From: Trypanosoma brucei
Taxonomy: Eukaryota
Reading direction: 5' to 3'
DNA: 64,000 nucleotides
Assembly: GCA_000002445.1 (NCBI GenBank)
Contig: CP000068.1
Location: forward strand, 992,001-1,056,000
Below are positions 33,959-61,300 of the stretch, in pieces (position 1 is the stretch's first letter; the number at the start of each line of letters is the position of its first letter). The position numbers and the translations under genes were made by a program. A model generated the notes under the pieces. It searched no databases. It worked only from the letters and a program-made list of their open reading frames with translations, and had not been told where the DNA came from.

Positions 33959-34849
33959 AGTGCAGACGGTACTTTGCCCTGCCAACGGCACGCTGCGGCG
34001 GCATACACAACACACGAACAGGGCACACACGGACCCTCCAGGATGGCTGCCGTCGCCCATGCAGACTAGCAACACGCAACAATGACGAAATGGTAGCCCA
34101 ACGCAGAAAAAGAAAATAAAGCACAAATAAATTATTGAGAAAGGGAACTATACCTCGGGGAAGGCGGCGGCAAGCTCAAGTAAAGGGGCCGAGCAACTCT
34201 TGTCAAAACACAAAAACGACTCCCGATAGTGGCTAACAGTGCAAAAATACCGAATGAAAATAAAACGTTTAGCAAAGAAAAAAAGACGAGAGAGAGAGAG
34301 AGATACCGCTCACTGAGTTTACCGTTGTGTATGGCCTTGCAGTCCGCACCGCATACAATCGCTGTCACTTCCCCCACCTCCTGCAATGAATATCCCTTGG
34401 CTCGTATTTAACTTCGCTTAAGTGAACAAAGTAAGAATCCAAGGACGGCAAGTACTAAATGTTACCTTATAACACTTTGAGTTCCCTCTTTTCCTCGTGG
34501 ACGAAACGCTAACTGAAAAACGAAATGGGGGAATCCAGGAAAACAACACGAAAAGGAGTGTACTGCCAAGTAACGTCGGGAACGAAAGTACACAAAGAGG
34601 ATTTTCAAGAAATATTACACATTATTTAACCTCACAGGTGTGAACAGAGAATTTCATAACCTCACCACCACGTCTTCCTTGTAACTCCCTTCATCAACAT
34701 GTTATCTACTGTGCGTCAATACTGCAAGCAGAGTGCAAAAAAGGTTCCTCTATCCATGCACTTTGCTTCAAGGCAAAGTTTGTCACATCATTGTCAAAAT
34801 CATAACCGTATCACCAACCCCAAGATCACGTGGCACCAGAACCGATAGT

Positions 34850-37800: not shown

Positions 37801-38416
37801 CTGCAGCCATGGCTACAAACTCACGGCGACGTTCCTTCTCGTTAAGTGCTGCAATGCGAGCACCAATGAGGGCATCTTCGAGGACTGCTTGTTTCTCATT
37901 CACAGCGCACAGTGCAACTTCCTGCTCCCTACATCGGTCCTTGTACCACTGAAGCTCCCGCTGCTGCTTCGCTGTTTCAATGAGAAGATTTTCCCGTGAG
38001 AGAATCGCCGTGGGCAACGCTGCCGTTGTTAACGTTGGAGGGTCCTCATCCTTCGCTTCAGGATGTAGGCCATTGGGTGAAGAACAACATTCACTTGGAG
38101 GGAGTGTACTAGCTCTGCCGTCCGGAGCCGTGTGATCCGGTGATCCGCTGACTTGTTCTCCACCGGGTGTGTGCTTCGTTACTCCATGCTTGCGAGGGCT
38201 CTCTGTGGTTGGTTCCGCTTTGATTCTGTCGTTGGTAACAGGCGGTGACTCCTCCTGAAATGATGGTTGAGTGTTTAACGGAGTGTTTTTACTTGTCCCA
38301 CGACCGCAAGTCCAAACATGATGGGATAAAACCGGTTCGACCCCCATCGTTTGGTTACCAACTTCATGACCACTGCCGCGTGTTACAGTGCTCTTACCCA
38401 ACTGCAAGGATGCCAT
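34850..38416 (-). CDS. large coiled-coil protein (1188 aa)
   Basis: Long heptad-like charged helical sequence (e.g. LGGLRRELRHTRKLLEQSEKERVALTECKGRYEAELGKLRNVNERIHGELK; LQSFGKRHRQLQQELQAMKEDCELQRKEVGNRTKDIDALREQLTERREEHFE). A possible hydrophobic segment (FFAVATVSIACT) lies before a second, C-terminal coiled coil. Confidence 0.75.
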   Translation of the reverse strand: MASLQLGKSTVTRGSGHEVGNQTMGVEPVLSHHVWTCGRGTSKNTPLNTQPSFQEESPPVTNDRIKAEPTTESPRKHGVTKHTPGGEQVSGSPDHTAPDGRASTLPPSECCSSPNGLHPEAKDEDPPTLTTAALPTAILSRENLLIETAKQQRELQWYKDRCREQEVALCAVNEKQAVLEDALIGARIAALNEKERRREFVAMAAAQRREARLALEPQVHALRVMEGELGGLRRELRHTRKLLEQSEKERVALTECKGRYEAELGKLRNVNERIHGELKVMHSRCAKLEQVNAKNIEVVDAEACEVKQSKNTATTDVDDEHRREVDATLHITFLQLYEEMERRQLEAAAVREVFEVYVDYLHRIQRETCGTMLLLCKHGKQLVNTLTRSDASLSDGGCPDDGEVGGSCAYTTLLRCANEVGKQLQAIETAIGDQLLTATQQQRDMQNLLLTERRTHQDELRNIEQTLQTVRQGAEDMKEKLTIADCRYNQLAQAVKRHCRQLLSVSAKGSKNKSKSGNSKQERKLSENSAEREVTAVRKIGDLLTIEGKGNNSVSPQVASPAELLNPAKLLLGDVPSSGGEIESLLALLKTSQQAACCALEDMRETLDSNEAQWQKERQRLIAATTEVRQRHQATTKRFQASLTAARATEVDLEKKLSAAVVERKVAVKKAEIAEMELQSFGKRHRQLQQELQAMKEDCELQRKEVGNRTKDIDALREQLTERREEHFEMAVLRGRCDDLVRITDALEQRVQREEKGKHALYEVARCFCGVLIAVVMRVRTVVAERRAMCRAYEAATEECRSMMLELRDTIKDIKVEETRRKESKRLAPFIYHPSFFAVATVSIACTRMSRATKRSRRPRRVSFELHDSHADGQDDDGASRLSVPACGKVFAPPNSLRGVVESVPLLSELFRRPFLTNIVRTVQIPPLRDLLPIIVGIYEKNNTVGSTYLLQQVIDIAEVDVASNEYRAHFAPSMTPSWKTDPSKWVRVGKQYCGRSCSGPSKMAPAQRLREVFHFLRHRIDKLKREQEKHKEAMCGALEENRQLRAQLEESQQMATSLLRKQEEYELEAAVSSAARGACRGVDQRLSELYDELHKEREARRVVEEVNAQLRMREVELLASSHKMRDEVRSLSIELAEQQQSYTTDRLNHSSCNYSHRPAAAAEHSKPLYHPRSVCLSGVELPYTSAQ

Positions 38417-41317: not shown

Positions 41318-44300
41318 TTACTTCTTTGGTGTTGCAACACTTTTTTTCTTTCGGTTCTTCATAGCCCTTCCCAAATCCGTATCTGCAGCTTCTTGAAATA
41401 CACCGGAGAGCAGTTGATGTGCAAGATTCAGTCCGCGCTGGGTATTCTTGTTATACTCCTGTCGGTGTTGTTGCTCCCGTTCTTGCAAGCAAACCATATT
41501 TTGCTCAAACTGCATGTGCCTTTTCCTGATTTCTTTTGTCAACCCTTCAAACTGAAGTGGCCGAGGATGCGTCTCAGAGGCTGGGATTAGCGTCATGCGT
41601 ATGGGTTTTTTCGAACTTTCAATAAGGGTCATTGGTGTCCGCTTTGTTGCTTCACCGTTCTCAATGTACCGGGGCGTGACAGCCCCACTAGAAAATGCGT
41701 CAGTTAACTGCTTAGATGCCCCTGGTGAGGCAGTTCTATTATCGAACTGAGTACCGGACGGAAAGCAGCGGGGGCTCGGTTGTGCCGATGTTTTCACTTT
41801 GGAAGCATCTACACCCCCTAAGTTTGAAAGTACAGAAGGATGCAGCCGATGCCTCGCGTAGTGAAGGAACAGCGGCGAGCTTAAAGGAAGTGGTACCTTT
41901 ACAGTTCTGTCACGGGTGCTGCGGGTATTGGTCGTAATGGTGGCGGGTAATATGCCCACCGCCGAATTCTCGTCGTGTTCCACAAGCGTAAAAGTCGGTT
42001 TCTCCTCTAACGTGTCATCTAAAGGGGGAAGTGGCACATGCGCAATACTCGCGGCTGAGTGTGCTTCAATGTAATTTCTCACCTTTGCGAGTGCAGCATC
42101 AAGGGGGAAACTACATATCACAGAGTCGCGGACAGCAGTGTCATTGCCACTCTGATTGTTATTCCCGCTTGTATTTTGCTTGCCAGCACCTACTGAAAAC
42201 GAGACCGAAGCCCTGCTCTTTCCGTTGGGAAATATCTGTGGTAGAACATTGTTTCCCTCATTGCCGTTATGCTTTGTCTGGCCCCCCAATGAGTTTTGCC
42301 TAATTTTTTTCCCTGTCTTCCCCTTCGTGTCATCATTTAGAGACTCGGTAACCACACCGGTACCGAGTTTTACGCTCTTATTCGTGCCAAGTGGGGCGTC
42401 CGCACCTGTCTCTGTGAAGCAAACGGACTTTCCACCTTTTTTGTTGCAGTTGCCTTCGGGGCATTCCTGCTTTGGCGCTTCCGTCAACCGGTCGTGCATG
42501 GAGGTCGTGCGCTGCTCAAGTTTCTGAACAAGAAAATTGACGTGCTTAGCGTACTTTTTGAACTCCAGCACTATCCTGTGATATCCGTTTACCACTTCTA
42601 CATCAACATCATCAAACGAGTCATCACCAAGAAATTCAAGCTGCTCATCCTCTGCTGCGGACCCTGCTGCGGTGGACTGCTCGCCATCATTTGAACCCCC
42701 ACGAGGTGAGGAGGGACCGGTGCTGTTGGCCGCGTTCGGATCGCTGTCAAGAGGTCTACTCCCTCGTTTGATAGGAGGGAGCCCGTTGAAATCTGCCCCG
42801 CTTCCACGCGACTGGTGGTCAAAAGAGGGCTGCGCTCCCCCTTTCCTTTGCCGCGGTGTCGGCCACCCAGAGGAACGCACATAGGTTGCCACCAGACCAC
42901 TGCACCAGTAGTAAAATATACGGTAAATATTCACACGCATGACGGCGTTGAGAAGACCTGCTAAGAAGTCGTTTGGAAAACAGTGAACCAGAGCGTAGTA
43001 TGTTACGTGAGGCACGATAATCATATAAGCTGAGAAGACATTATCCTTCTCTGACCGCAGCCGTTCAAAGGACTCACCAAATAGCATGGCAAGTCGGTGA
43101 AAGCAGCGTTCTGCAAGATTCCTCAGTTCGCACACTTCAACGTGAGCAACGGTGAATGTGTCTATGGCATTTGCCAACCGCAACGTCATCACCTTCACGC
43201 CGTCGTGCATCGGGCTCTTCGTGTCGTCAGTTGCACCTGCCTTACCACCATCATCCTCCCTATCAGCACGATTCAGTTGTAACGGATCGAGCGTTGGGTG
43301 AGTTGTGTCCGTGCAGCTCTTCATAGTGTCCGCATTCTCATTGGCTTCTTCAGCGTCACCAAACACGAAGGAGGAAGCAATATTAAATATATTGCTACTA
43401 CATGGTTCAGGTGCTGACAGCATCGCTATAATATCCTCCAGAACCAAGGCTCTTGTTTCTGCCTTCCTCTCGCTACTAATGTTCCTCCCAGTACAGGCAT
43501 TTCTCAGACGTCTGGTAACAATCTGCTCAAGCACCGATAAAGGTGGTAGATCAGACATATAGCGAGGAAACATGGTGCGAAAGACGTGTTCCAGGTTAAC
43601 ATAGCGGTCGATAAGAACTCGTTCAGAGGAGGCGCGACGTGCGTGTGCTACAATATACCAAAAGAACAAGTATATAATCTCATGGCTTTCTGAAAAGTTC
43701 TTCAGGAAGTTCGTGATTCCCACACTTGTTGTCTTTACTCTTTGCTCTCCACGCTCCAGTAAAAGCACCTTTTCAATGGCCTCACTCACGGGCAGAGAAC
43801 TGGGAAATGAGCAACTATCTCCCAGTTTTCCTGTTGTTTCATCAAAGGATGGAAGTGTTACGGAGTATATGGACGGGGCATCCTTCTTTGTTTGTCGCTT
43901 CTGTGTTTCCCGCAGCATCATATGTTTCATAACCGTGACGTCCATTGGCATGTCGTCTGGAACCCCAAGTTCCTCATTTTCGGCCTCACGCATTCTCAGT
44001 GAAGTAACAGAGACCCTTCTACCAACCTTTAGCTCCTCCATAGACGGTTTACAGGTTTGGCAATCATTCGTGCCAGGCCGACTAGTTTCTGGAGTGCGTC
44101 GAATAACCACACGCTTTCCACCTGATTTCAAACGGGCCGCGGGCGGTGGATTGGAGCCGTCTTTCGGAGAATGCGGGGCGCCCTTGCGTGGGGTGGTGCA
44201 ACAACTGCTATTTGCCAACGAAGGTTGACTAAAGGGATTTTCATCACCGTTAGTAAGGTTGCTTTCAGTCCCATCTGTACATGGCACTGCCTCCTCTTCA

Positions 44301-44887
44301 TTTAGCATATCAATGGCAGTGCTAAATCTTTGGCAAAGATTCACTCGCACATCGGGTGTTTCATCCCCCTGTTTTAACGTCGACGAACGAATGCAGGGTC
44401 TCCCCATGTTCCCAGAGATATTGGGGAAAGTGTCTGGAGCTTCGGAACTGTCATCCGACCCCTCAGAACCAGGAGCTTCATTTGAGGAATTAAATCTTGC
44501 ACTTCCGCAAAACTTAGCGCCACCGCCCGGAGGCCCTAGCCCAGTTGTCCCCTTGTTTATACCGATGGGCACAGTAGTTTGTGTGTGGTCGGGCTTTAAT
44601 CTAATGCTTGGTAACCGTCCAGATGTGGATTGAGGTGCAACACATGCCGGAGATTTCCGGTCGGGTTGCTGAGTGCCGCCTCCGAGTGGAAGACAACCTG
44701 ACACTAATGACTCACATTTCGCAAGAAGCGAGTTATACTGTTTAGTTTGTTTTCTCTCCTCCCCCTTCTTGCCGAGCAGAGATGAGGTAATATTGGGTGG
44801 GTCCACACGCGGCAAGGTGGGAAAGGACGTCATCCTCTCTCCTGGCTCACTGCGCTTCGCATTACCCCGCACTCCTGTGATTTGCAT
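41318..44887 (-). CDS. large hypothetical protein (1189 aa) with low-complexity termini and a central conserved-looking globular region
   Basis: Uninterrupted minus-strand ORF. The central segment (HEIIYLFFWYIVAHARRASSERVLIDRYVNLEHVFRTMFPRYMSDLPPLSVLEQIV...MIIVPHVTYYALVHCFPNDFLAGLLNAVMRVNIYRIFYYWCSGLVATYV) looks like a folded domain I cannot name. It is flanked by Ser/Gly/Pro-rich disordered sequence. Confidence 0.7.
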   Translation of the reverse strand: MQITGVRGNAKRSEPGERMTSFPTLPRVDPPNITSSLLGKKGEERKQTKQYNSLLAKCESLVSGCLPLGGGTQQPDRKSPACVAPQSTSGRLPSIRLKPDHTQTTVPIGINKGTTGLGPPGGGAKFCGSARFNSSNEAPGSEGSDDSSEAPDTFPNISGNMGRPCIRSSTLKQGDETPDVRVNLCQRFSTAIDMLNEEEAVPCTDGTESNLTNGDENPFSQPSLANSSCCTTPRKGAPHSPKDGSNPPPAARLKSGGKRVVIRRTPETSRPGTNDCQTCKPSMEELKVGRRVSVTSLRMREAENEELGVPDDMPMDVTVMKHMMLRETQKRQTKKDAPSIYSVTLPSFDETTGKLGDSCSFPSSLPVSEAIEKVLLLERGEQRVKTTSVGITNFLKNFSESHEIIYLFFWYIVAHARRASSERVLIDRYVNLEHVFRTMFPRYMSDLPPLSVLEQIVTRRLRNACTGRNISSERKAETRALVLEDIIAMLSAPEPCSSNIFNIASSFVFGDAEEANENADTMKSCTDTTHPTLDPLQLNRADREDDGGKAGATDDTKSPMHDGVKVMTLRLANAIDTFTVAHVEVCELRNLAERCFHRLAMLFGESFERLRSEKDNVFSAYMIIVPHVTYYALVHCFPNDFLAGLLNAVMRVNIYRIFYYWCSGLVATYVRSSGWPTPRQRKGGAQPSFDHQSRGSGADFNGLPPIKRGSRPLDSDPNAANSTGPSSPRGGSNDGEQSTAAGSAAEDEQLEFLGDDSFDDVDVEVVNGYHRIVLEFKKYAKHVNFLVQKLEQRTTSMHDRLTEAPKQECPEGNCNKKGGKSVCFTETGADAPLGTNKSVKLGTGVVTESLNDDTKGKTGKKIRQNSLGGQTKHNGNEGNNVLPQIFPNGKSRASVSFSVGAGKQNTSGNNNQSGNDTAVRDSVICSFPLDAALAKVRNYIEAHSAASIAHVPLPPLDDTLEEKPTFTLVEHDENSAVGILPATITTNTRSTRDRTVKVPLPLSSPLFLHYARHRLHPSVLSNLGGVDASKVKTSAQPSPRCFPSGTQFDNRTASPGASKQLTDAFSSGAVTPRYIENGEATKRTPMTLIESSKKPIRMTLIPASETHPRPLQFEGLTKEIRKRHMQFEQNMVCLQEREQQHRQEYNKNTQRGLNLAHQLLSGVFQEAADTDLGRAMKNRKKKSVATPKK

Positions 44888-50192: not shown

Positions 50193-53100
50193 TCATGCAT
50201 CAACGGCAACAACGCCACCAACACGTTGAAGAAGGAAGACCGCATCCCTCCGCTGTGCGGGGTCGATTCTGAGGCACGAAGAAACTACTAACTGTATTGT
50301 CGGGTCCGCATCCTCTGGAGGTGGTACAGGTTCCAAAAGACCTTCACGCAGCGACTCCATTAGCGCCTCGTGGTCCGAAAGCACCGCAAGTAACTCGTTA
50401 CGTGACCGGCTGATTTGTGCATTAGCTGTCCACCGCCATGGGAAGTCGTCGTTCAACATCTCTATAACAAGCAACCCAAGGGCATACATATCTGTCATCC
50501 ACGACTGGGGTTTGCCACGAGCTTCCTCTGGACTGACACAATAAGTCATTTGATGCTTGAGTAAAGGTGCAGCATCAAGCAGAACCCCAGTCAATCGGCA
50601 ATGGCCCCCCACACAAGTGACAACTGTTTCAGGACACAGGCAACCCTGAACAAGGCCACGCTCGTGGAGACAGGCGAGTCCTCGCAACAGAGAGGTGACG
50701 TGCCGCTTCACCGTGGCGGCGGGTAGCTTCCGGCCATATCGCACTTTAAGATCACGAAGCGTACCACCGGGGACGTACTCCCAAACAAGCAAGACGCCGT
50801 GAGGGGGGACATGACAATACGACAAGCATTGCACAAGGCTGACACTTTCCCCAACCTGAAGCACTTTATCCAGTGCAACGTCCAATTCCTCACGCGTCAA
50901 GCGTTCTCCAAGTTCTGTTAGAGGGTAAAGCTTCAGCAAAGCAAGTACCCCAGTGGCAGACATTCCCATGTACGCTACGCCTACAGAGTTGGCACCCTCA
51001 TGAATGGGGTCGATTGAGCGCTGCCAACTGTTCCCATGACAGTCCTCGAGAAAACGAGGTATCTCACCATTCAGTGTCGAAGCTGCATTCTCCCCCACGA
51101 AGACCGACGGAGTCCGCGGGGAGCCACCGTCACACGGTGACGAGCTTCCACCAGAGGTTTTTCCAGTACCACTCAGCAGCGGCGGCGAAGATATCAGGCT
51201 CGTTGCGCTGCTGTTCAGGCTATCAGGGACGATAAGTAATTGATTAACAAACGGTGTGCGGTCTCTTCTCCCAACACGCGCAGCACACTCATCACGAAGA
51301 CGTTGGGGTTGCAATGACATAAACGAAGGTGATTCCCCCGATAAGGTCACCGACCCCACGGAAATGGCCTTGTCCAGCAATCGTAGTGCAGAGACGTAGT
51401 TGCCACGCACCATCATATCGTACGCCTCGTTGTAGTGGCCCTCAAACTCATTCCATGTCGGCTGCCCAGCATCCCCGGAAAGTACCTCATACAACGTTAC
51501 GCAAACACCGTCTTCGCCTTCCAGAAAAACAGACCTAAATGGTAACAAACGGAAGTGGCCACGCACCAGCAGTGCTGTCTCTTCTGTGACCGCTGCCGCG
51601 ACTCCCACAGATTGAAGGGCATCACCAACCCGCCGGTAGATATTGCGGCACAGAAGCACATAGCGACTTCGTCCACCTCCGCTAACGATGCCACTCGGAA
51701 ATGCACCGGACTCCACAATCACGCGATAAGCACCAGAAACTTCGCTCCGCGCCATCAGCTTCGTGGCCACTTGACGCGCGAACTCAACGGCCCTCGTCGC
51801 CTCAGCAGCGAATTCGCGGTCCATCGACTGCACACCAAAACTCACAATGCAGTAGTCTGGGCGCTGCACCTCGAAGCACCCACCGCAGGCTGCAGCAGCA
51901 CTGACAACTATCTGCATCATCAGCTCCACAACGGCGTCGCTGGGGTTGCGCGTTCTACCGGGCGTATAGTAAACGTAGGCGACGCTGCAGGCGACAGGCT
52001 TCAGTTCCTCACCATATCGACGTGGTGACGAGGCTGCCTCAGGATCAGATGCGCATGCGTCCTTGCTCCTTGACACGCTCGCTGCCGCACCACTTAAATC
52101 AAAAGCACGGTCTGGCATGTATGTCCGCACCGCATTCAGGCGTCGGCGGAGCACACTACACACACCGTGGAGCTCACAAACCTCTCTCAGTGCAATCACT
52201 TTTTGCTTCTCTTCATCAGAAGATTTGACTAGCCCGGCCCTCAGCTTTTCCTCCGTACTTCGGAGCGGGCGGTGAAGGCAAAGCTCCACAAAATAGTAAC
52301 AAGCGGCTATCACAATGAGGTACATTACAAAGCTAGAAAGGCCAGCAATGCCCCCGTAGGTGGCAATCGGGCCCAGGTAATAGCTGGGGTTCGTGACAAC
52401 AACAACAACCATTTCAACCCCGCTGTCAGTGACAATGTGATGTGCACTGGCCACCGCAGCCAACCCGCCGTACATGAACCACGACCTCTGGTTCTTGCCT
52501 CGCGCGGCCTCTTGCAAGTCGAGGTATCGGATAGCTTTGCTCATCAGCGGGTCAGAGACGTCGTCAGGGCTTAGGAACCGTATTGGTTCACCCATGAAAG
52601 CGGATTTCCACTCATCGCTCACATTCGCAAGCGGTTGGCCCCAGTTGTTCGCAAACACGTAGAATTGGCCGCTTTCGTTGTTGGGATCCACAAGCATGAC
52701 GCGGACACCGCTGTCAGACGCCTTGTGCCACCTCACACTAATTTTTCCTGTGTGCATTCCCACGTAAATGTACCCTACACCAACTGTTCCATCGTCCTCT
52801 CTCTCGAAGAAAGGATAGACGTACGCTGCATAAGTGGGTGGGAACCGCGGGCGAACCCAGTACTCAGACGGTTTCATCTCTCGACCTTCTCGCACTGACT
52901 CGTTCCATATCCGCACAACGGAATCAAAGTGAAAGCGTTCCGTGTATTCAGTAATCGTTAATCCAGAGGTAGTGGACTCATACCGTTTCAGTGGCTGCTG
53001 GTACTCCATCGTTACAGGGTCCATATAGTAGAAGTCTTTCATTATCCCTCCCTCACTCACGTGACCATAATACTGGCCAGGATTACTCTTTGAGGCGATA

Positions 53101-53954
53101 CACAGGGCGGCTTGTTTCTTCGTCAACGAGAATGCACCGATAGATGCTATCATGCGCCTTTTATCTACGTCACGAAGAGTAACGCACAGGCTAGAGACCA
53201 TTCCATCCTTTAATGGCATTGCATGATCCATTACGGGATTCGAAAAAGTATTGTTCGAGAAATACATGCTCCCTATCCCCTTCGCCATTCGTGTCATACG
53301 CAGGAAGGGAGTGAACCCCGAAAGGGTGACATAGTTGACTTCGACAACATCATGCAGGGACCCCATCACCGCCACAGAGGCCCGCGCCCATGGGGCGATT
53401 GCAAGTGCTATAGAGATAGCGTACACACAAGTCATGATAACAATCAGGGGGAACAGCACCCAGCAGCGCAGCGACACTCCCCTTGTGGGATTCGTGGTGG
53501 TTTGGTTCGAAACACGAGGCACTTCCTCCTCCATTGATCCTACCACTGATGCAGAACGGGAGTTGGCAGGATGTGTGACAACCTGCAACCCACGTCCAGT
53601 GTTGCAGTGAGTGTTGGGAGAATGATGGTCATATTTCATTGCATAGCCACTTCCAGGGCGTGGTGACCAGGGACCGATACCACCAAAACCAGGTAAGTGA
53701 ACCCCTCCCCCATGATGCCCCACAGCGGCCCCAACCAGCCCCGAGGACGGTAGCGGCTTCGCGTCGCTGCTAAACGGATGTTCGGTGCTCCTCGCGGTAT
53801 TACGGACAATCTCCGGTGCCGTTTCTCTACCATTACACTCCCTTGATGAGCATGGCGCTGCATTTCCTACGTTAAACCCGTCCCGCTTCGAGTGGTTGTT
53901 TTCCTTCTCGGTACTGAAGGAGTGACTATCCCCGAGGGAAGAAACATTGCGCAT
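50193..53954 (-). CDS. receptor-like membrane protein: two TM helices flanking a ~350-aa ectodomain, then a divergent class-III nucleotidyl-cyclase homology domain and a C-terminal pseudokinase domain (1253 aa)
   Basis: TM1 at aa ~162-188 (LRCWVLFPLIVIMTCVYAISIALAIA). Ectodomain with several N-x-S/T sites. TM2 at aa ~535-560 (GIAGLSSFVMYLIVIAACYYFVELCL). Cyclase-like motifs: RPDYCIVSFG (compare IGDAYMVVSG), YRVIVESGAFPSGIVSGG (compare RIGIHSGPVVAGVVG), RYVLLCRNIYRRVGDALQSVG (compare RYCLFGDTVNTASRMESTG), VTEETALLV (compare VSEETYRLL). Kinase-like motifs: LHERGLVQGCLCPETVV in place of HRDLKPEN, no DFG (HCRLTG), YCVSPEEA (APE-like), DMYALGLLVIEML (DxWSxG-like). The kinase is therefore probably catalytically dead. 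Confidence 0.8.
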   Translation of the reverse strand: MRNVSSLGDSHSFSTEKENNHSKRDGFNVGNAAPCSSRECNGRETAPEIVRNTARSTEHPFSSDAKPLPSSGLVGAAVGHHGGGVHLPGFGGIGPWSPRPGSGYAMKYDHHSPNTHCNTGRGLQVVTHPANSRSASVVGSMEEEVPRVSNQTTTNPTRGVSLRCWVLFPLIVIMTCVYAISIALAIAPWARASVAVMGSLHDVVEVNYVTLSGFTPFLRMTRMAKGIGSMYFSNNTFSNPVMDHAMPLKDGMVSSLCVTLRDVDKRRMIASIGAFSLTKKQAALCIASKSNPGQYYGHVSEGGIMKDFYYMDPVTMEYQQPLKRYESTTSGLTITEYTERFHFDSVVRIWNESVREGREMKPSEYWVRPRFPPTYAAYVYPFFEREDDGTVGVGYIYVGMHTGKISVRWHKASDSGVRVMLVDPNNESGQFYVFANNWGQPLANVSDEWKSAFMGEPIRFLSPDDVSDPLMSKAIRYLDLQEAARGKNQRSWFMYGGLAAVASAHHIVTDSGVEMVVVVVTNPSYYLGPIATYGGIAGLSSFVMYLIVIAACYYFVELCLHRPLRSTEEKLRAGLVKSSDEEKQKVIALREVCELHGVCSVLRRRLNAVRTYMPDRAFDLSGAAASVSRSKDACASDPEAASSPRRYGEELKPVACSVAYVYYTPGRTRNPSDAVVELMMQIVVSAAAACGGCFEVQRPDYCIVSFGVQSMDREFAAEATRAVEFARQVATKLMARSEVSGAYRVIVESGAFPSGIVSGGGRSRYVLLCRNIYRRVGDALQSVGVAAAVTEETALLVRGHFRLLPFRSVFLEGEDGVCVTLYEVLSGDAGQPTWNEFEGHYNEAYDMMVRGNYVSALRLLDKAISVGSVTLSGESPSFMSLQPQRLRDECAARVGRRDRTPFVNQLLIVPDSLNSSATSLISSPPLLSGTGKTSGGSSSPCDGGSPRTPSVFVGENAASTLNGEIPRFLEDCHGNSWQRSIDPIHEGANSVGVAYMGMSATGVLALLKLYPLTELGERLTREELDVALDKVLQVGESVSLVQCLSYCHVPPHGVLLVWEYVPGGTLRDLKVRYGRKLPAATVKRHVTSLLRGLACLHERGLVQGCLCPETVVTCVGGHCRLTGVLLDAAPLLKHQMTYCVSPEEARGKPQSWMTDMYALGLLVIEMLNDDFPWRWTANAQISRSRNELLAVLSDHEALMESLREGLLEPVPPPEDADPTIQLVVSSCLRIDPAQRRDAVFLLQRVGGVVAVDA
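50220..51002 (-). other. protein-kinase-like (pseudokinase) domain within CDS 50193..53954 (aa ~985-1245)
   Basis: Subdomain VIb, VIII and IX analogues are present, but the catalytic Asp and the DFG motif are absent. Confidence 0.55.
51540..52007 (-). other. divergent class-III adenylyl/guanylyl-cyclase homology domain within CDS 50193..53954 (aa ~650-805)
   Basis: Motif-by-motif correspondence to the cyclase catalytic core as listed for the parent CDS. The first metal-binding Asp position appears substituted (AYVYYTPG where FxDIxGFT is expected). Confidence 0.5.
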
Positions 53955-55311
53955 TGTCAGTGCTACCTCGGCCTACAAACTAAAAGAGTGTCCGCACGTT
54001 TATTTCTTCACTACACTCGACCAACCACTATATCACTTAAATTACGAAAAAAAAAAGAAAGAAAACGTGTTGAGTAAGTGGCAGGAACGTGCTTATCCCC
54101 TCGTGCTGGTAAGGAAGTTACTCACTTTGTGCTGCTGTTCGTTACTTTATTCACCTCGTTTTTTCATATGCTTTTAGTACACCTCTGATGATACTTGTGT
54201 TTGCTTGCCTCCACAGACTCGTTGTGCATATATAATAAGTTCCGTGCCCAAGGTGATGAAGATTGCATTCTCTGGGGTATTATTCACGTTGATACGGTCA
54301 TCAATAAATTTTATTTGTTGGTACAGATGACGCTTCGCTGTTAAGCATACCGGTGTTGGTTAGGCAGACACCAACTTTGGGATGAGGTTCAGCACGGCAT
54401 GCTGTGGTTGAAAAAATACCCACTCATCCCCGTTATTTAGTTGTGTTAACTTTCCAGCCCGCGATAACACACTCCCGCAAAAAAACTTGCGGGGTAGAGA
54501 GGCACTATAGATGCTTTAAAAACATATGGTGAAGAGAACGATTATGCAAGATAAAATTAGCAGCGGTATAGCCCGATGGTACGGCATACTGCTTACAATG
54601 TTCCTGTTCTTGCACGATTATGCGAAGATACGTACAAGAGTAAGCAGTTAACTGAGTGACGTACAATGGGTTTATTCGACAGCAACTTGAGACAGATGTT
54701 TTCGACCTTCGGTCGCTCGCTCCCGCAAGTGGTGTACCTTTTGTGGACAGAGTAGTCAGCGTCGTACCTACCCCACTTTCAAAGGGAGAAAATAGTAGTG
54801 GAAACGAAACGATAAACAAACATGGTTTTGTAAATTTTGCACAAAAAGTAAACCCGATCATCGAAAACGTTTTAAAGTTAAGGATTTAGCTTACAATAAG
54901 AAAGCGGCGAAAGCATCTCTAACCCGCCTCCCGCGCGAAGTGGAGAGGGTTGTCACTGGGTGGGTTTTCAAAACTTACCTCCCTCATCATTGCGTGTGTG
55001 ATGATATAAAAGAGAAAACATAAAGATTATAAAACTGTGGTAAGATATCACCGTTTCTTTCAGAAGCTCACACATTGTCAGTGGCATTGAACAAAAACAA
55101 AAGGGTTAAAGCGAAACTTTAAAAAAAAAAGAGGTAAACGCGATAGTACATGAGTTAGTGTGAGGAAAGAATGTCTGACCTCCGAAAGACTAAGGAGCAC
55201 ATAAACTCTCACTTTATACAGTTCGCGGGCTTCACAGTTTTATCGCCACCCTATCGTTCAATGCCCCAAAACAGTCTTCACACAGAAAGATATCCCTTCA
55301 ACAGCATTTGT

Positions 55312-58300
55312 TTATTGCGGACGAATTTTCATCATCACTGCAAAAGTGGACGGCGATAGACTAGAATGAGCTTTTCCATTACGTGCGTCGCTATCAGAGG
55401 CGATGAGGCTTCTTTTCACAAATAATTTATGCTCTTCAAGCAGGTGCAGGGCCAGACGCCAGAACCCCAGGGGTATGTTGTTACTGCGCTCTGTATTCAC
55501 TACATGCTGCCTTTGCCATAGTTGATGTGCCGTGTACACTGTCCTAACCAGGCGTTCAAGAAGAAAACCGTCAACAACCACATGCTGTGAGAGGAGCTTC
55601 TCGGTGTCTATATCATCCGCGTTAACCGATGTGTCGAACCCACTTTCTCTCTTAGGAGGGTTGGTAAGGGCTTGCAAGGTTCGCCTCAGTGGTTGCTGGC
55701 CAGGCGCACCGACTCGTGCGACATATTTGCAAGCCGAGCTCCACTGCCCACACCGGCAAAGAATTTCCAACAGTGTCACGAATGGAACAGAGAGGTCGGC
55801 TTTCGGACGTGCGTTAAGAAAGAAAACACCAAAAAGTTGTAATGACTTTTCCCAGAGAAGCAGATCGTTGTCGCAACTGCGTGTGGAAGTTGGCTCGCCG
55901 TTTACTTCACCCAACCGTTCTTCCCACGACAGTCCTCTGCCCTGACCCCAATCCCCTTTATCTTCAAATTCGTTGCAATCTTCGGCACCTTCCCCGGAAC
56001 TGCATGGCAGCAACACCTCACCAAGCGTCAAACTCTCTTTCGGGGCAAAGCATAGACGAACAATATCAAAAGCCTTAGAAACATAATGAACTACAACCGC
56101 AGCTGTCACCCCCTCGACCTCCACGTCGGGACAAGCGCTTTTGTAAAAAAGATCCCACAAAACTGACTGCTCCGCGACGGTTAAAGCGAGCAAATAGCGC
56201 AGCGGTGGAGTAATAAGTTTATCATCCCGTGCGATTTGGCTCAGAACTTCAAGTGTTTGGGAGAGCCTCGTGGAACCACACCCCGCGACCGCTGCAGCAA
56301 ACACGCGGCACAACAACGACGATGAAATTGGAAGAGAACTGTGAAGCATCATCTGTTGCTTAATGACATGCGCCGCTGCAAGAGCAGTGTTGCGAAGTTC
56401 ACAAAGGGATTCTTGCGTGGGAATGACGGTTTGCACCAATTCGGGAATCTGGATACGGTCCCCGCCAATATTTTCACCCGAAGAGCGCATGCTCATTTGG
56501 AAAATGGACTGTGCATCTTCGCTGAAGGCATGACCTCCAAATGTCCGTGATAAGGCAATGGGTAGTAGTACCCTAACGTCACCTAAAAATTGCTGAGTAA
56601 CGGCAACAGCATGGGATTCATTACCCATAGTTTTTGGTGTCATAGACGCCTTTTCCGGCAACGTACATAGAATCAGCACTATTGACTCCACGAGACTAGG
56701 TTTGAAGCAATGAATGCGACTGAACTGGGTGGACCATTCCAGGAACGATGCGAACATCTGAATACCCTCCTGTGTCTCATCAGCTGAAGCACACCCTCCC
56801 TCTTGTGTAGCAAACCGTAGTTTCCATGCCGCATCCGTGATAAGGACAAGTAGTTCCTCGGAGGGAATAAAATAAGGCATTTCTCCCACCTCATATGCGT
56901 TCGTTTCTGAGCGTGGTAAGGAAGATATCTTCTGCCCGGTATTACGTCCGGTTCGTGCATAGGGGATTAACGTCATTGCTTTCGCATATTGTAGTATAAG
57001 TAAAGGAGGCACAGCAGCTCGTGAGAGTACATGTAGTAACCTCTCGACGTCTCGTACATCCGGTGTACTACCATCTTGAAGTTGAGAAAAGTACAAGAAC
57101 ATTACCGCATCAGCCATCTCAATAGGTTTCAAGCCTTTTCCGCGTTCTTCCAAAAGGAGGAATAATTTCCGATAATGGCTCCGTTGCAGCCGAACACCTG
57201 CAGCCCGCCTCTTTTCAACCAAAAAGACAAGTTTGGCACAATCAACTGACAATTTTTTTTCAACGGTTGAAAGGTATTCCAATTCTTGAAGTTCCATATC
57301 ATCCGCTAGCAGTTCTGCTTGCCGCTGTGCTACAAGCGGAGGACCACCCAGAAGTGACTCACAGATCACAAGGAATCGTAAGCCATGCCTCTGGTCCATA
57401 TTATTAATACACGCCACCTTCAAAAGTGACATCGCCTCCTCCGACAATCGAATGCCATGAGGACGCACCAGGGAATCGCACAGTGCTTTCATTGCATTCA
57501 ATCCCCTGTCACCCGTAAGACTTGCACAATGAAAGAGTGCATCAACAACATCCTGCCTCAGCATACCCTGCTGAGAAAGGTTACACCCCTTGCCAGTACT
57601 GAAGAAACAACGACGGAGCTCATTGTTGCTTGCTACCAAAGACAAGGCGTCACACCATAACCCTTTGAGCGCCTCCTGGCATCCGGTCACTGCGGGAACG
57701 GGACACTTTTGGAGCTTGTTGAGTATCACAAACGCGTCACGGATGCTAACCATCACGGCGTTAAGTACACTGGCGTGCCGTTGGTGTGGGGGCAATGCAT
57801 TTAGAACACACAAAAGCAGCAACCGCCACCGCTCAAGCGACGAAACAATATTGGCGGCTGAAATATTACCACGAGTGGTTGATGCGGTTCCTATGGGCGT
57901 TAGTGCGAGACAGCCAATCATGTGGCACCCCAGCTCCGTGTTACCCCAAAACGCTCCGATCCCCGATGTAGAAGAAACAGATTCTTTCTCCTGCAATCGT
58001 TCCAAAACATCCTCAACAAAATGATTAAGCATTTCAAGCTCGTTAAGCGTATTCTGCAAAAGCATTGGTAGATGCTTCTCGGAGGTCTCAGTGTTGACGA
58101 AGTTGATAGCCTGACGCTTCATGGAATGCAACCCAGAAAATAACAGTGATAAGGCTTCCGTGCAGATTGAGTCGGCAGTGCTCACGGAATCGCCCAACGG
58201 AACTGCTTCAGGTGAAAACAAAAACACATCGCGCGCTGCAGTAACAACAACTCCAAGGGACCCGCTAGCCACCATTAGGTTAACTAGCTGCGTTGCTTGC

Positions 58301-61300
58301 GCTGCCGTAACGCACGGCCGTCCGATATAGGATCTTGCAGAGACGTACGCTGCGAGGGCCGATAGCCAATCACTGCTTCCGCCGCCAGGTCTGGCGCGAA
58401 ATATCTCCCGATTGCGCCAAAAAAGTATCGTATTGCGCTGGTTTGTATCTGAAGGAGTTCTAGCAAGCAACTTATACTGTTCGTTGTTCGTGTACAGTGC
58501 CTCGTTATACGCAGCTGTGGAGCACAAGAAATCTAACCATTCATTCTTTTCTTCAGTGGGTGGACACAGCTTTACTTTTTGGTATTCACGCTGGAGCGCC
58601 CCGCAAAGCCGAGAAGTGGTGGTTGGGAACACGCCGGAAAGGATTTCCACTAGCAGCCGAGTCGCGGTGCGGTTCACGCAAAGCATACGCAATGCTGAGG
58701 AGGTAACACCCTCACTGTCATTCTCTATCTGATTGCCCTCTGCAGCTTCACAAGTGGAAAGTATTTCTTGCACAGTAGCTTCCAAAACACTCAGTGGTCC
58801 CTCCACAGTTTTCGGCACATCTCGTTGCACCCACCGAAGTGTCAACGCGAGTGGCTCAAAACAAACGGAATCATTTGTTTGTGCCCTCAGCCATGCCACG
58901 GCTATAAAAACCCCTGTCCACTGCGAGCGCTCGGAAAGTCCGCTAGGACAATTAGATGCGACTTCGAACGCGGTTACCGCTAATGTTAACGAATCCGCGG
59001 GGAGATTGCGAAAAATAACAACCCGTTCGTAGCACTGAATGTATGTTGTCGGTGCCGCGTACATGCATTCACTTCCGTCCTGCCCACCATGAAGCAACTC
59101 GTCATAGAAGTGTACGACGGCACTGTGATGGAACCGCCGTATCAAACTGACGCAGGCGTCGTGAGTCGCCCGAGATTGAAGTAACTGAGGCGCCTGTCTT
59201 GCAACAACAGCTGCGTCACCAGTTTGACCATTGCGCAGCAAGTCATGCAGGTGCCGTTCTTTCCTCGATAAGGTCCCGGAGGATTGCTCCCGTAGCATAT
59301 CATCCACAGTTTTACCAATAAGTGTGCCATTCAGAAGTGAGAGGATCACCCACGGCCCGTTGCTATCGGCAGAGATGGGGAAAACAACTGATGCTGCGTG
59401 TTCCAGCATCGCCAAAGTATCGCGTCCTCTAATTCGAGGGTTATCTGTTGTCTGCTGTGCTGCTTCCACAAACCTCAGCAAAGGTTCATATGCCTGTCGC
59501 TTGTACATCCGCTGCATTGTCGCGGTCACAAAGGCTGCCTTTGCTTCGCGCAAAATGATATAGGATTTGTCACCATTGTCTCTCTTTGGATCCGTCTTCT
59601 TCGTTACATCACTTGAGTTCGGCCGATGAAAGCTCAAAGATTGCAGGACAGCGAGGCCGTCTATCCATCCCAAATATGGGTGTTTCTGCAGTTTCTTCGT
59701 GAGGTCCGCAAGCATTTGGGCGCAGTTTAGGTGACGGACAGAACTGTTACACCCTCTACTAATGAGTTGTACGAAGGGTGGTTTAGCAGCAAGGAAGCGA
59801 AGAAATTCCACTAAGACTGCGATTGGGATGGAAGTCATGCTGCAAGCTCCAAGTACGTAGCGTAGCGTTTCCGATAGTGCCTCATCAACTGTACGAAAGT
59901 ATTGCAGAGTTGAGCCAGCAGAGACTGCGGGGAGGCGCTGCACTAGGTTAAGGGCGGGCACCCACTGATCTAATGGTTGCGCAATGTGGATGGTGCGAAG
60001 CGCAAGTTCGGTCGCGCGGCGGCAGTGCTCATTTCCACTTACAACACACCACATATTCTTTTCTGCAGTCCTGGTGATGGAAACAAGGGCTTCTTTCCAT
60101 AGGTGACGAATAGCGTTAACGCCCCTACTACGAAGCAAAAAAAGCTGCGTCATGATAACTATAAAAAAACGACACCGCAACCCCTCGACACCACACTCGT
60201 CGCTGTTGTCAGGCATGAAACGTAACGACCGGCGCCATGGCAGAAGCCTTATCTCTTCAGAACTAGCATGCATGGGAGAAGCGTACGCTTCCTTTTCCAA
60301 TGACTTCAGCAACCCTTCAGTGAGGCACACATGCGTACTTTGGTTTGGGGTTTTTCTGAAGATGAGGAGAGCGTCTAGCATTCGGCCAAGGCGAAGAAAT
60401 GGTGGGTCGTAGTGCGGTCTGTTATTCCTATAAAGGAGAAATAGCCTGCAACCACGATGAACAGATTTTAAAGAGTGATACTCTAAAAGAGACAAAGCAT
60501 CCTCGAGTGGCGCTCGTTCGACCCGGTCCGATTCCACAACGCACCGCCAAAGCAGGTGCTCCAACTCCACCTCTTCGATCTCTGACATACCAGAGATAGT
60601 GCGGCTCTTTGCAGAGAGCAATGCATATAACTCAGCCATCATCGCTACTGCCTCTGGGGTGTTTAGTGGAACGTACTGGAATCTACGCAAAATTAAGTCG
60701 AGGGTTGAACGACACAGCGCAGCACAGCTCTTAGAGACACGATATTTTTGCGCCTCGATCAACAAAACTAGCACCTTTTCCAGCATCATCGTTGTGACCA
60801 CCATGTAGGGGGCAACTGTAGCAAAAACCTGCAGGGCCGCACATATGGCACCGACGTCGCCGTTACCTGAGACGGCCGCATCAAGGATTTTGAATGTGAC
60901 ATCATGCGAAGGTACAACGGCGGCGCTCCACAGTGCTTTTTGCACAACAGTATATGTATCGGGGAATGCGGATAGTAGCGCAGAAAACTCTGCACCCTTC
61001 ATTTCCTCACCATCCAGAAGCAATATTTCTGGAGCGCCAGCGATCACATCACCACCGTTATGGCTTGCAAGTATTTCGTGCAGTTTATAGTGCAACCGAA
61101 CTTCTTGTCGCTGCCTTCTAGTGTCTTGCCTTTTCCACTTACCATTCAAAAAATCCAGCAACATTTCAACTGTTACAGCCTCATCCTGGGAAACTGCTGT
61201 CCGTCTTGGCCGCGACGCCAGAATAACCCTGCGAACGCCAGAACCAAATATCTTCTCCAACTCGCTCTCCACCTCACCTGTCACAATATCCACTTCCCTC

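What the first reader, a model, noticed from the sequence alone, without database searches (positions are those of the whole stretch)
50193..53954. Receptor-like protein fusing a sensor-type ectodomain, a divergent class-III nucleotidyl-cyclase domain and a pseudokinase
The translated ORF has a 2-TM topology: a cytosolic N-terminus, TM1, a ~350-aa ectodomain rich in N-x-S/T motifs, TM2, and an intracellular cyclase-plus-kinase region. That topology resembles bacterial sensor-cyclase layouts (CHASE/Cache-type class III cyclases). It does not match the single-TM receptor-type adenylate cyclases known from trypanosomatids. The cyclase homology domain keeps most of its structural motifs (GDxY-like PDY, RxIxESG...GIVSGG, RYxLL...QSVG, VTEETALL). 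The first metal-binding Asp motif is substituted, so activity is uncertain. A C-terminal kinase-like domain follows that lacks HRD and DFG, so it is a pseudokinase. Cyclase followed by kinase-homology domain is the reverse of the order in metazoan receptor guanylyl cyclases. This could be a signalling or scaffold receptor of an architecture not, to my knowledge, characterised in kinetoplastids.
Basis: partly seen in the sequence, partly recalled or inferred. Interest (0 to 1): 0.8.

Follow-up and report, generated by a model that had tools for sequence, protein, structure and literature searches.

The report
Doubly dead RDK1-like sensor receptor
This Trypanosoma brucei gene (Tb927.5.3320) encodes a membrane receptor with a bacterial-type double-Cache sensor outside the cell and, inside, a cyclase domain and a kinase domain that have both lost their catalytic residues; it is an unstudied relative of the known differentiation regulator RDK1, so the design is already described.

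Summary

The novelty claim fails. Published RNAi primers identify the gene as Tb927.5.3320, already listed as a pseudokinase. It is a collinear paralogue of RDK1 (hhalign E 7e-98). RDK1's sensor-cyclase-kinase layout was published in 2021, and 2026 preprints describe the same layout in Leishmania and report no adenylyl cyclase activity for RDK1.

Most likely it is a dimeric ligand sensor that signals through conformation or scaffolding rather than through cAMP/cGMP synthesis or phosphotransfer. It is a new, doubly inactive member of a known kind.

The parts
50193..53954 (-). Complete ORF, 1253 aa plus stop codon: Tb927.5.3320, annotated 'pseudokinase, putative'
   Evidence: ORF listing. 99-100% identical proteins in T. 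b. gambiense, T. b. brucei and T. equiperdum. The published Tb927.5.3320 RNAi primers match at 51041-51060 and 50607-50627.
53475..53954 (-). N-terminal cytosolic tail (residues 1-160), poorly conserved and low in complexity
   Evidence: 12-24% identity to orthologues. Some assemblies call a start at M106 instead.
53385..53474 (-). TM helix 1 (residues ~161-190; hydrophobic core 166-184)
   Evidence: Kyte-Doolittle peak 2.55. The SLRCWVL motif is invariant in the three sequences aligned and varies slightly elsewhere (T. congolense SLRCWLI). The segment is part of a long helix in the AF2 model.
52350..53384 (-). Extracytoplasmic dCache (double Cache / tandem PDC) sensor domain (residues 191-535)
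52275..52349 (-). TM helix 2 (residues ~536-560)
   Evidence: Hydropathy peak 2.19 at 542-560. Helix 530-579 in the AF2 model.
52107..52274 (-). Helical juxtamembrane linker (residues 561-616), HAMP-like, ending in the conserved Y-M-P-D-R
   Evidence: The pattern P-L...E-V...L...F/Y-x-P is conserved across 24 family members. Support for HAMP is weak: Pfam HAMP in 2 of 24 members (best E 0.056) and a chemoreceptor TM2-HAMP region at E 0.52. Inconclusive.
52005..52106 (-). Variable, probably disordered insert (residues 617-650)
   Evidence: 10-22% identity to orthologues. pLDDT below 50.
51465..52004 (-). Catalytically degenerate class III cyclase homology domain (residues 651-830)
51255..51464 (-). 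Three-helix TPR/MIT-like module (residues 831-900)
51075..51254 (-). Poorly conserved Ser/Pro-rich linker (residues 901-960)
   Evidence: 10-15% identity to orthologues.
50196..51074 (-). Pre-kinase motif (IPRFLxDxxGNxWxRS) and pseudokinase domain (residues 961-1253)
   Evidence: Pfam Pkinase E 2.8e-11. Alignment with RDK1-family active kinases keeps K1008 and changes the HRD Asp to C1105, the catalytic-loop Lys to C1107, the Asn to T1110 and the DFG Asp to G1123; the activation segment is shortened and SPE is kept.
54036..54065 (-). Polypyrimidine tract followed by AG, a candidate trans-splice acceptor ~82 nt upstream of the ATG
   Evidence: Read directly from the sequence. Its function is inferred from general knowledge of trypanosome mRNA processing and was not tested.

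Best explanation
The ORF is Tb927.5.3320, a receptor-like membrane protein of the kinetoplastid RDK1 family.

Shown:
- An extracytoplasmic dCache sensor domain sits between two TM helices.
- A conserved helical linker leads to a class III cyclase homology domain that has lost five of its six canonical catalytic residues.
- A small TPR/MIT-like helical module and a disordered linker follow.
- The C-terminal protein-kinase fold keeps the beta3 lysine but lacks the catalytic Asp, the Asn and the DFG Asp.

Inferred:
- Like bacterial dCache receptors and class III cyclases, it probably works as a dimer.
- A small-molecule or ionic cue bound by the dCache domain would shift TM2 and the linker helices.
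- The dead cyclase domain would act as a dimeric transducer rather than an enzyme.
- The output would be a change in the conformation, partners or localisation of the pseudokinase, for example allosteric control or scaffolding of an active kinase. It would not be cAMP/cGMP synthesis or phosphotransfer by this protein.
For: Identity: the Jones et al. RNAi primers for Tb927.5.3320 hit the ORF, and that paper lists the gene as 'Pseudo-Orphan'.

Dead active sites: residue mapping.

Selection: the dead cyclase domain is the best conserved part of the protein (58-64% identity, against 10-24% for the tails and linkers).

Family: hhalign against the RDK1 family gives probability 100% and E 7e-98 over 884 columns. 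tblastn with RDK1 gives E 5e-37.

Literature: RDK1 shows kinase activity but no adenylyl cyclase activity (bioRxiv 10.64898/2026.05.05.722970). The dCACHE-NucCase-kinase layout and a homodimer model are described for Leishmania RDK1 and LmxM.30.1830/1840.
Against: - No experiment bears on this protein's ligand, oligomeric state, partners or location.
- Knock-down gave no growth phenotype in bloodstream forms (Jones 2014 tables), so no function has been shown.
- The CHD model has only moderate confidence (mean pLDDT 64; 62-84 across the core).
- The HAMP assignment for the linker is not significant.
- D700, R744 and K1008 are retained, so nucleotide binding at either dead site cannot be excluded.
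- Tagged paralogues were mostly seen in the ER when over-expressed (PMC8519429), so surface exposure is not assured.
Confidence: 0.6

Rival explanations
1. The protein keeps an enzymatic or nucleotide-dependent activity despite the substitutions. Two routes are possible. It could be an atypical kinase that uses non-canonical residues, as some proteins first called pseudokinases turned out to be. Or its cyclase-like domain could bind ATP/GTP as an allosteric ligand or complement a partner's half-site.
Against: The catalytic Asp, the Asn and the DFG Asp are all missing, and the activation segment is shortened. No family member aligned here, RDK1 included, keeps the Asn/Arg pair or the Lys/Asp specificity pair that a complementing half-site would need. 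RDK1, which has the same kind of CHD, showed no adenylyl cyclase activity.
Confidence: 0.15
2. The protein is an endomembrane (ER or endocytic) resident whose dCache domain faces the lumen. It would report a lumenal or organellar condition rather than an extracellular cue.
For: Five of seven tagged T. brucei TM kinases, including RDK1 and two with cyclase-like domains, co-localised with BiP when expressed ectopically (PMC8519429). The topology evidence here (TM helices, Cys pair, sequons) cannot tell lumen from cell exterior.
Against: Those localisations used over-expression from a strong promoter. An earlier study placed RDK1 at the cell periphery, and the 2026 Leishmania preprint argues that tagging may disturb insertion. 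No localisation data were found for Tb927.5.3320.
Confidence: 0.3
3. The gene is a decaying duplicate of an RDK1-like kinase with no remaining function.
For: Both catalytic centres are dead. There was no loss-of-fitness phenotype in the RNAi screens. The tandem paralogue present in T. grayi is absent from the T. brucei locus.
Against: Orthologous sequences were found in T. brucei, T. congolense, T. vivax, T. cruzi, T. grayi and T. theileri at 44-51% identity; full-length ORFs were recovered for brucei, grayi, cruzi and vivax, and the congolense and theileri records are partial. The folded domains are far more conserved than the linkers. The same HG-type pseudokinase signature occurs across a wide subfamily that includes Leishmaniinae. 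The mRNA is regulated between life-cycle stages (PMC2771046).
Confidence: 0.04

Closest known systems
RDK1, repressor of differentiation kinase 1 (Tb927.11.14070) and its orthologues
   Same: Collinear homology from the membrane-proximal half of the ectodomain to the C-terminus (hhalign E 7e-98, 884 columns; tblastn E 5e-37, 22.6% identity). Shared layout: two TM helices about 360 aa apart, a dCache-type sensor, a helical linker ending in F/Y-x-P, a degenerate cyclase domain, a TPR-like helix pair, the 'D..G..W.RS' pre-kinase motif and a kinase fold.
   Different: RDK1 keeps HxD and DFG and is an active kinase. This protein has Q-G-C and T-G at those sites and a shortened activation segment. 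RDK1 has a differentiation phenotype; this gene has none reported.
Leishmania mexicana STE transmembrane kinases LmxM.30.1830/LmxM.30.1840 (dCACHE-NucCase-kinase)
   Same: The same three-domain layout with a dCACHE domain between two TM helices, as described in bioRxiv 10.64898/2026.09.15.751656. They form a tandem gene pair, as the T. grayi orthologue of this gene does with its paralogue.
   Different: They are classed as STE kinases and are needed for metacyclogenesis at low pH.
Bacterial dCache sensor receptors (chemoreceptors PctD and TlpC; histidine kinases; dCache-linked diguanylate and adenylate cyclases)
   Different: Sequence identity is only 5-14%, and no Pfam dCache model is matched. 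The output here is a dead cyclase plus a eukaryotic pseudokinase. The host is a eukaryote.
Metazoan receptor guanylyl cyclases (e.g. GC-A/NPR-A)
   Same: A receptor that combines an ectodomain, a kinase-homology pseudokinase and a class III cyclase domain in one chain (general knowledge; also noted).
   Different: The domain order is reversed. There are two TM helices instead of one, and a dCache ectodomain instead of a periplasmic-binding-protein-type one. The cyclase is dead here, whereas it is the output in metazoans.
Trypanosomatid receptor-type adenylate cyclases (ESAG4/GRESAG4)
   Different: Per general knowledge and PMC8519429, those have a single TM helix, a different ectodomain, intact catalytic residues and no kinase domain. 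Bacterial cyclases score higher against this model than GRESAG4 does.

Membership tests
Class III nucleotidyl cyclase (catalytically competent) | Cyclase homology domain fold (beta-alpha-beta-beta-alpha-beta core) | tested here: met
Class III nucleotidyl cyclase (catalytically competent) | Significant sequence-profile similarity to known cyclases | tested here: met
   Not met with the single sequence against Pfam or with a 5-orthologue profile. Met with the 20-sequence family profile: 2w01 E 4.2e-10, 6fht 3.8e-9, 3r5g 4e-8.
Class III nucleotidyl cyclase (catalytically competent) | Two metal-binding aspartates | tested here: not met
   The second Asp is kept (D700, in RPD aligned to GD). The first is absent: no D or E in 653-672.
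Class III nucleotidyl cyclase (catalytically competent) | Substrate-specifying pair (Lys or Glu four residues before the second Asp; Asp, Thr or Cys before the Asn motif) | tested here: not met
   V696 and V766, from the alignments to Cya2 and CyaB and the family alignment.
Class III nucleotidyl cyclase (catalytically competent) | Transition-state Asn and Arg (N-x-x-x-R) | tested here: not met
   Y773 and G777 occupy these positions.
Class III nucleotidyl cyclase (catalytically competent) | cAMP/cGMP synthesis | not testable with these tools
   The only proxy is that the paralogue RDK1 showed no adenylyl cyclase activity.
dCache (double Cache) extracytoplasmic sensor domain | Long N-terminal helix followed by two tandem PAS-like alpha/beta modules | tested here: met
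dCache (double Cache) extracytoplasmic sensor domain | Located between two TM helices on the non-cytosolic side | tested here: met
   TM segments at 166-184 and 542-560. Invariant Cys pair and sequons in the loop. The orientation itself is inferred.
dCache (double Cache) extracytoplasmic sensor domain | Match to a Pfam dCache model | tested here: not met
   No dCache family was reported for the full protein at E up to 10.
dCache (double Cache) extracytoplasmic sensor domain | Ligand-binding pocket residues in the membrane-distal module | not tested
   No residue-level comparison with liganded dCache structures was made.
RDK1-like kinetoplastid transmembrane kinases (dCache-cyclase-like-kinase) | Collinear homology to RDK1 across sensor, linker, cyclase-like and kinase regions | tested here: met
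   hhalign probability 100%, E 7.3e-98. tblastn E 5e-37. P0072 is confirmed as RDK1.
RDK1-like kinetoplastid transmembrane kinases (dCache-cyclase-like-kinase) | Catalytically competent kinase domain (beta3 Lys, HxD Asp, DFG Asp) | tested here: not met
   K1008 is present. The HxD Asp is C1105 and the DFG Asp is G1123.
Eukaryotic protein kinase superfamily | Pkinase profile match above the curated threshold | tested here: met
   43.7 bits against a cut-off of 31.7, E 2.8e-11. Hits to solved kinases.
HAMP domain | Significant profile match to HAMP between TM2 and the output domain | tested here: inconclusive
   The conserved P-L...E-V pattern and two helices fit HAMP. However, Pfam HAMP matched only 2 of 24 members (best E 0.056) and the best PDB hit had E 0.52.

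The most novel reading that the evidence does not exclude
Tb927.5.3320 is a ligand-binding but enzymatically silent co-receptor. It would pair, through its dCache, linker and dead-cyclase dimer interfaces or through its pseudokinase, with an active family member such as RDK1, and would tune that kinase's response to an environmental cue. This would be a protozoan analogue of the HER3/ErbB3-type pseudokinase partner, built on a bacterial-type sensor cassette.
Probability: 0.2. Interest if true: 0.6.

Novelty: new member of a known kind. Interest (0 to 1): 0.38.

Why it matters
Trypanosomes lack G-protein-coupled receptors and receptor tyrosine kinases, so how they sense their hosts is an open question. 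The RDK1 family, with a bacterial-type dCache sensor, a cyclase-like domain and a kinase, is one of the few candidate receptor systems, and its members control differentiation in T. brucei and Leishmania.

This work adds three things. T. brucei carries a conserved family member in which both output domains are dead. The whole family lacks the cyclase catalytic set. A broad subfamily shares the same 'HG' pseudokinase signature. Together these suggest that the cyclase-like domain is a transducer rather than an enzyme, and that some members act as regulators or scaffolds. This gives a concrete, testable partner hypothesis for RDK1 signalling, but it does not define a new class of system.

Tried and rejected
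- Pfam on the single sequence found only Pkinase, with no cyclase, Cache or HAMP model.
- A 5-orthologue profile of residues 560-905 against PDB sequences found only a TPR protein. Pfam scans of those five sequences found no cyclase.
- An early PDB profile search was swamped by the kinase domain because the alignment kept full-length rows.
- Pfam scans of 64 distant homologues did not list Guanylate_cyc.
- The third word-indexed homologue search, made with a broader alignment, returned only four proteins.
- I first suspected the gene was one of the ten published T. brucei TM kinases. None matches in size or TM positions.
- Primers for Tb927.5.2820 did not match the window.
- The HAMP assignment for the linker stayed below significance.
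- I suspected that the two ORFs of 1188 and 1189 aa were duplicates. They are unrelated.
- I looked for a relic of the T. grayi tandem paralogue in the 1.36-kb upstream spacer and elsewhere in the window and found none.
- I did not establish which Leishmania gene is the orthologue, and I made no tree.
Full report
**1. The observation**

It lies in a run of large ORFs that are all on the minus strand, as expected for a trypanosomatid polycistronic unit.

Identical or 99%-identical proteins are on record for T. brucei brucei TREU927 (XP_845004.1, UniProt Q57Z61), T. b. gambiense and T. equiperdum.

The RNAi primers that Jones et al. 2014 (PMC3894213, supplementary primer table) list for Tb927.5.3320 match the ORF at 51041-51060 (exact) and 50607-50627 (one mismatch). 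The gene is therefore Tb927.5.3320. That paper classes it as a 'Pseudo-Orphan' pseudokinase with no loss-of-fitness phenotype. A later paper quotes the database product name as 'Pseudokinase, putative' (PMC7952579).

**2. Topology and ectodomain**

A hydropathy scan gives two strong segments, 166-184 and 542-560, which leaves 345 residues between the helices. The same two-helix spacing, roughly 325-460 residues and about 370 in most members, recurs across dozens of homologues.

An AlphaFold2 model of residues 155-590, built on a 26-sequence alignment, has mean pLDDT 84.2 and pTM 0.77. It shows a long N-terminal helix, two alpha/beta modules and a long C-terminal helix.

Two cysteines (C257, C285) are invariant in all 26 aligned family members. 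The loop carries four N-x-S/T sequons, three at positions that also carry a sequon in the T. grayi and T. theileri orthologues. Four sequons against 1.7 expected from shuffling is only a weak enrichment. The 'sensor-type ectodomain' is thus confirmed and can be named: it has a dCache fold, although no Pfam dCache model matches the sequence.

**3. The cyclase-like domain**

Single-sequence Pfam and a five-orthologue profile found no cyclase, so I tested the claim in two independent ways.

Second, an exhaustive HMMER search of 1.84 billion representatives with the orthologue profile recovered 78 relatives. From these I built a 20-sequence alignment of this domain alone. That profile hits solved cyclases by sequence: Cya2 E 4.2e-10, a Cya2-based chimera 3.8e-9, CyaB 4e-8, rhodopsin-guanylyl cyclase 6e-4 and sAC 9e-4. 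The domain is therefore a true class III cyclase homology domain.

The printed alignments and the family alignment give the catalytic positions:

| Canonical position | Residue here |
|---|---|
| First metal Asp | absent; no acidic residue in beta1 or its loop (653-672) |
| Second metal Asp | D700, kept (RPD aligned to GD) |
| Lys/Glu specificity residue, four positions upstream of the second Asp | V696 |
| Second specificity residue | V766 |
| Transition-state Asn | Y773 |
| Transition-state Arg | G777 |

The Arg of the 'RiGi' strand (R744) is retained. With five of six catalytic positions lost, this is a pseudo-cyclase, not merely a cyclase of uncertain activity. None of the aligned family members, RDK1 included, keeps the Asn/Arg pair. 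Even so, this is the most conserved part of the protein among Trypanosoma orthologues: 58-64% identity, against 40-51% for the sensor, 49-57% for the kinase region and 10-24% for the tails and linkers.

**4. Linker and helical module**

Between TM2 and the cyclase domain lies a helical stretch with a pattern conserved in 24 family members: P-L just after the membrane, then E-V...L...L, ending in F/Y-x-P. It looks like a HAMP domain.

The tests are not significant. Pfam HAMP matched 2 of 24 members (best E 0.056), and the best PDB match, a chemoreceptor TM2-HAMP segment, had E 0.52. I record this as inconclusive.

**5. The kinase-like domain**

Pfam Pkinase matches above threshold, and solved Ser/Thr kinases match at E about 1e-6. 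Aligned with RDK1-family kinases that carry H-C/A-D-x-K-P-x-N and DFG, this protein reads L-V-Q-G-C-L-C-P-E-T and R-L-T-G-V.

| Canonical kinase residue | Residue here |
|---|---|
| Catalytic Asp (HxD) | C1105 |
| Catalytic-loop Lys | C1107 |
| Catalytic-loop Asn | T1110 |
| DFG Asp | G1123 |
| beta3 Lys | K1008, kept |
| APE motif | S-P-E, kept |

The activation segment is also shortened. The orthologues in T. grayi, T. cruzi and T. vivax likewise have H/Q-G in place of HxD and no DFG. The pseudokinase call is confirmed and agrees with the published classification.

**6. Family context**

The homologues fall into two groups.

- 'HG'-type pseudokinases. These include the Tb927.5.3320 orthologues, a second Trypanosoma group (T. 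grayi, T. melophagium, T. rangeli) and a large Leishmaniinae group that shares the TEETA motif.
- Active kinases with HxD and DFG. One of these, P0072, is T. brucei RDK1 itself.

A profile of the Tb927.5.3320 orthologues aligns with a profile of the RDK1 group at probability 100% and E 7.3e-98 over 884 columns. The alignment runs from residue ~309 in the sensor to the C-terminus. tblastn with RDK1 against the window gives E 5e-37 at 22.6% identity over 983 residues. The protein is a collinear paralogue of RDK1.

In T. grayi the orthologue sits directly downstream of a 1344-aa paralogue, which follows a 4629-aa gene. In the T. brucei window the giant ORF is followed directly by Tb927.5.3320, and no trace of that paralogue remains.

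**7. What is already known**

- Jensen et al. 2021 (PMC8519429) surveyed ten T. brucei kinases with TM domains. They reported nucleotide-cyclase-like domains in Tb927.3.5650, Tb927.9.12400 and Tb927.10.1910. For RDK1, HHpred found a bacterial sensor/receptor domain (TlpQ, PDC-fold sensors), then a TM segment, then an adenylyl/guanylyl cyclase fold (Rv1264, 99.4%) ahead of the kinase. Tb927.5.3320 is not among their ten: no entry matches its size or TM positions.
- A 2026 preprint on RDK1 notes the inverted order relative to metazoan receptor guanylyl cyclases. It reports kinase activity, no adenylyl cyclase activity and no change in cAMP on knock-down (10.64898/2026.05.05.722970).
- A second 2026 preprint describes 'dCACHE-NucCase-kinase' proteins in Leishmania (RDK1 and the tandem pair LmxM.30.1830/1840), models a homodimer and links them to low-pH differentiation (10.64898/2026.09.15.751656).
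- A full-text search for Tb927.5.3320 found only two papers, both expression tables. The mRNA is 2.4-fold higher in cultured bloodstream forms than in procyclic forms (PMC2771046), and it is reduced on ZC3H45 knock-down during metacyclogenesis (PMC7952579).

**8. How it most likely works**

Shown: the domain order, the folds, the loss of catalytic residues, and the conservation pattern.

Inferred from what is established for dCache receptors and class III cyclases, both of which act as dimers:
- A cue bound by the dCache domain moves TM2 and the linker helices.
- The dead cyclase domain serves as the dimeric coupling element.
- The pseudokinase changes conformation or partners.

The output is therefore protein-protein signalling rather than second-messenger synthesis or phosphorylation by this protein. 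Strong purifying selection on the dead cyclase domain fits a structural or allosteric role.

The main alternatives are residual nucleotide binding or atypical catalysis (K1008, D700 and R744 are kept), a lumenal rather than external sensing role (related kinases were seen in the ER when over-expressed), and, least likely, a functionless relic.

**9. Verdict**

This is an uncharacterised, doubly inactive member of the RDK1-type dCache-cyclase-like-kinase family: a new member of a known kind.

Interest is moderate. It offers a natural 'dead' counterpart to RDK1 and supports the view that the cyclase-like domain of the whole family is a transducer, not an enzyme.

Noticed in passing
window 1-64000: Every ORF of 250 aa or more lies on the minus strand, apart from one antisense ORF inside another gene. 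This is consistent with a single polycistronic transcription unit.
   Followed up: partly
window 31559-34126 (-): The ORF carries an Apg6/Beclin BARA domain (Pfam PF04111, E 5.4e-20). It is probably the ATG6/VPS30 homologue.
   Followed up: partly
window 26494-30693 (-): A 1399-aa protein with multiple WD40 beta-propeller matches.
   Followed up: no
window 34850-38416 (-) and 41318-44887 (-): Two neighbouring ORFs of 1188 and 1189 aa look like duplicates by length but are unrelated (BLASTP E 0.5). Neither has an informative Pfam match.
   Followed up: yes
window 55312-63999 (-); L001 1-2937: A giant ORF (2895 aa in the listing of complete ORFs, ending one base from the window edge) has no Pfam match and lies upstream of the finding. 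In T. grayi the same relative position is held by a gene whose product has 4629 residues; I did not test whether the two are homologous.
   Followed up: partly
L001 4066-8100 and 10001-13939 (T. grayi JMRU01000136): In T. grayi the orthologue of the finding is preceded by a tandem paralogue (P0015, 1344 aa, 26% identical). The T. brucei window has only a 1.36-kb spacer there and no relic by tblastn.
   Followed up: yes
proteins P0024, P0015, P0026 (Trypanosoma paralogue group): Members of this paralogue group keep 'DI' at the first metal-Asp site, with a canonical 'FSDI' in P0024. They have L-P-E instead of G-D at the second site. Different family branches have therefore lost different halves of the cyclase active site.
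   Followed up: partly
window 54036-54065 (-): A polypyrimidine tract followed by AG lies about 82 nt upstream of the ATG at 53954, which is a plausible trans-splice acceptor. Some assemblies instead call a 1148-aa product starting at M106.
   Followed up: no
proteins P0038, P0039, P0050 (JGI metagenome contigs): Proteins of 3500-3770 aa from metagenomes carry the same cyclase-like domain and an HG-type kinase-like domain at their C-terminal end, behind two TM helices. They appear to be much larger relatives from unidentified organisms.
   Followed up: no
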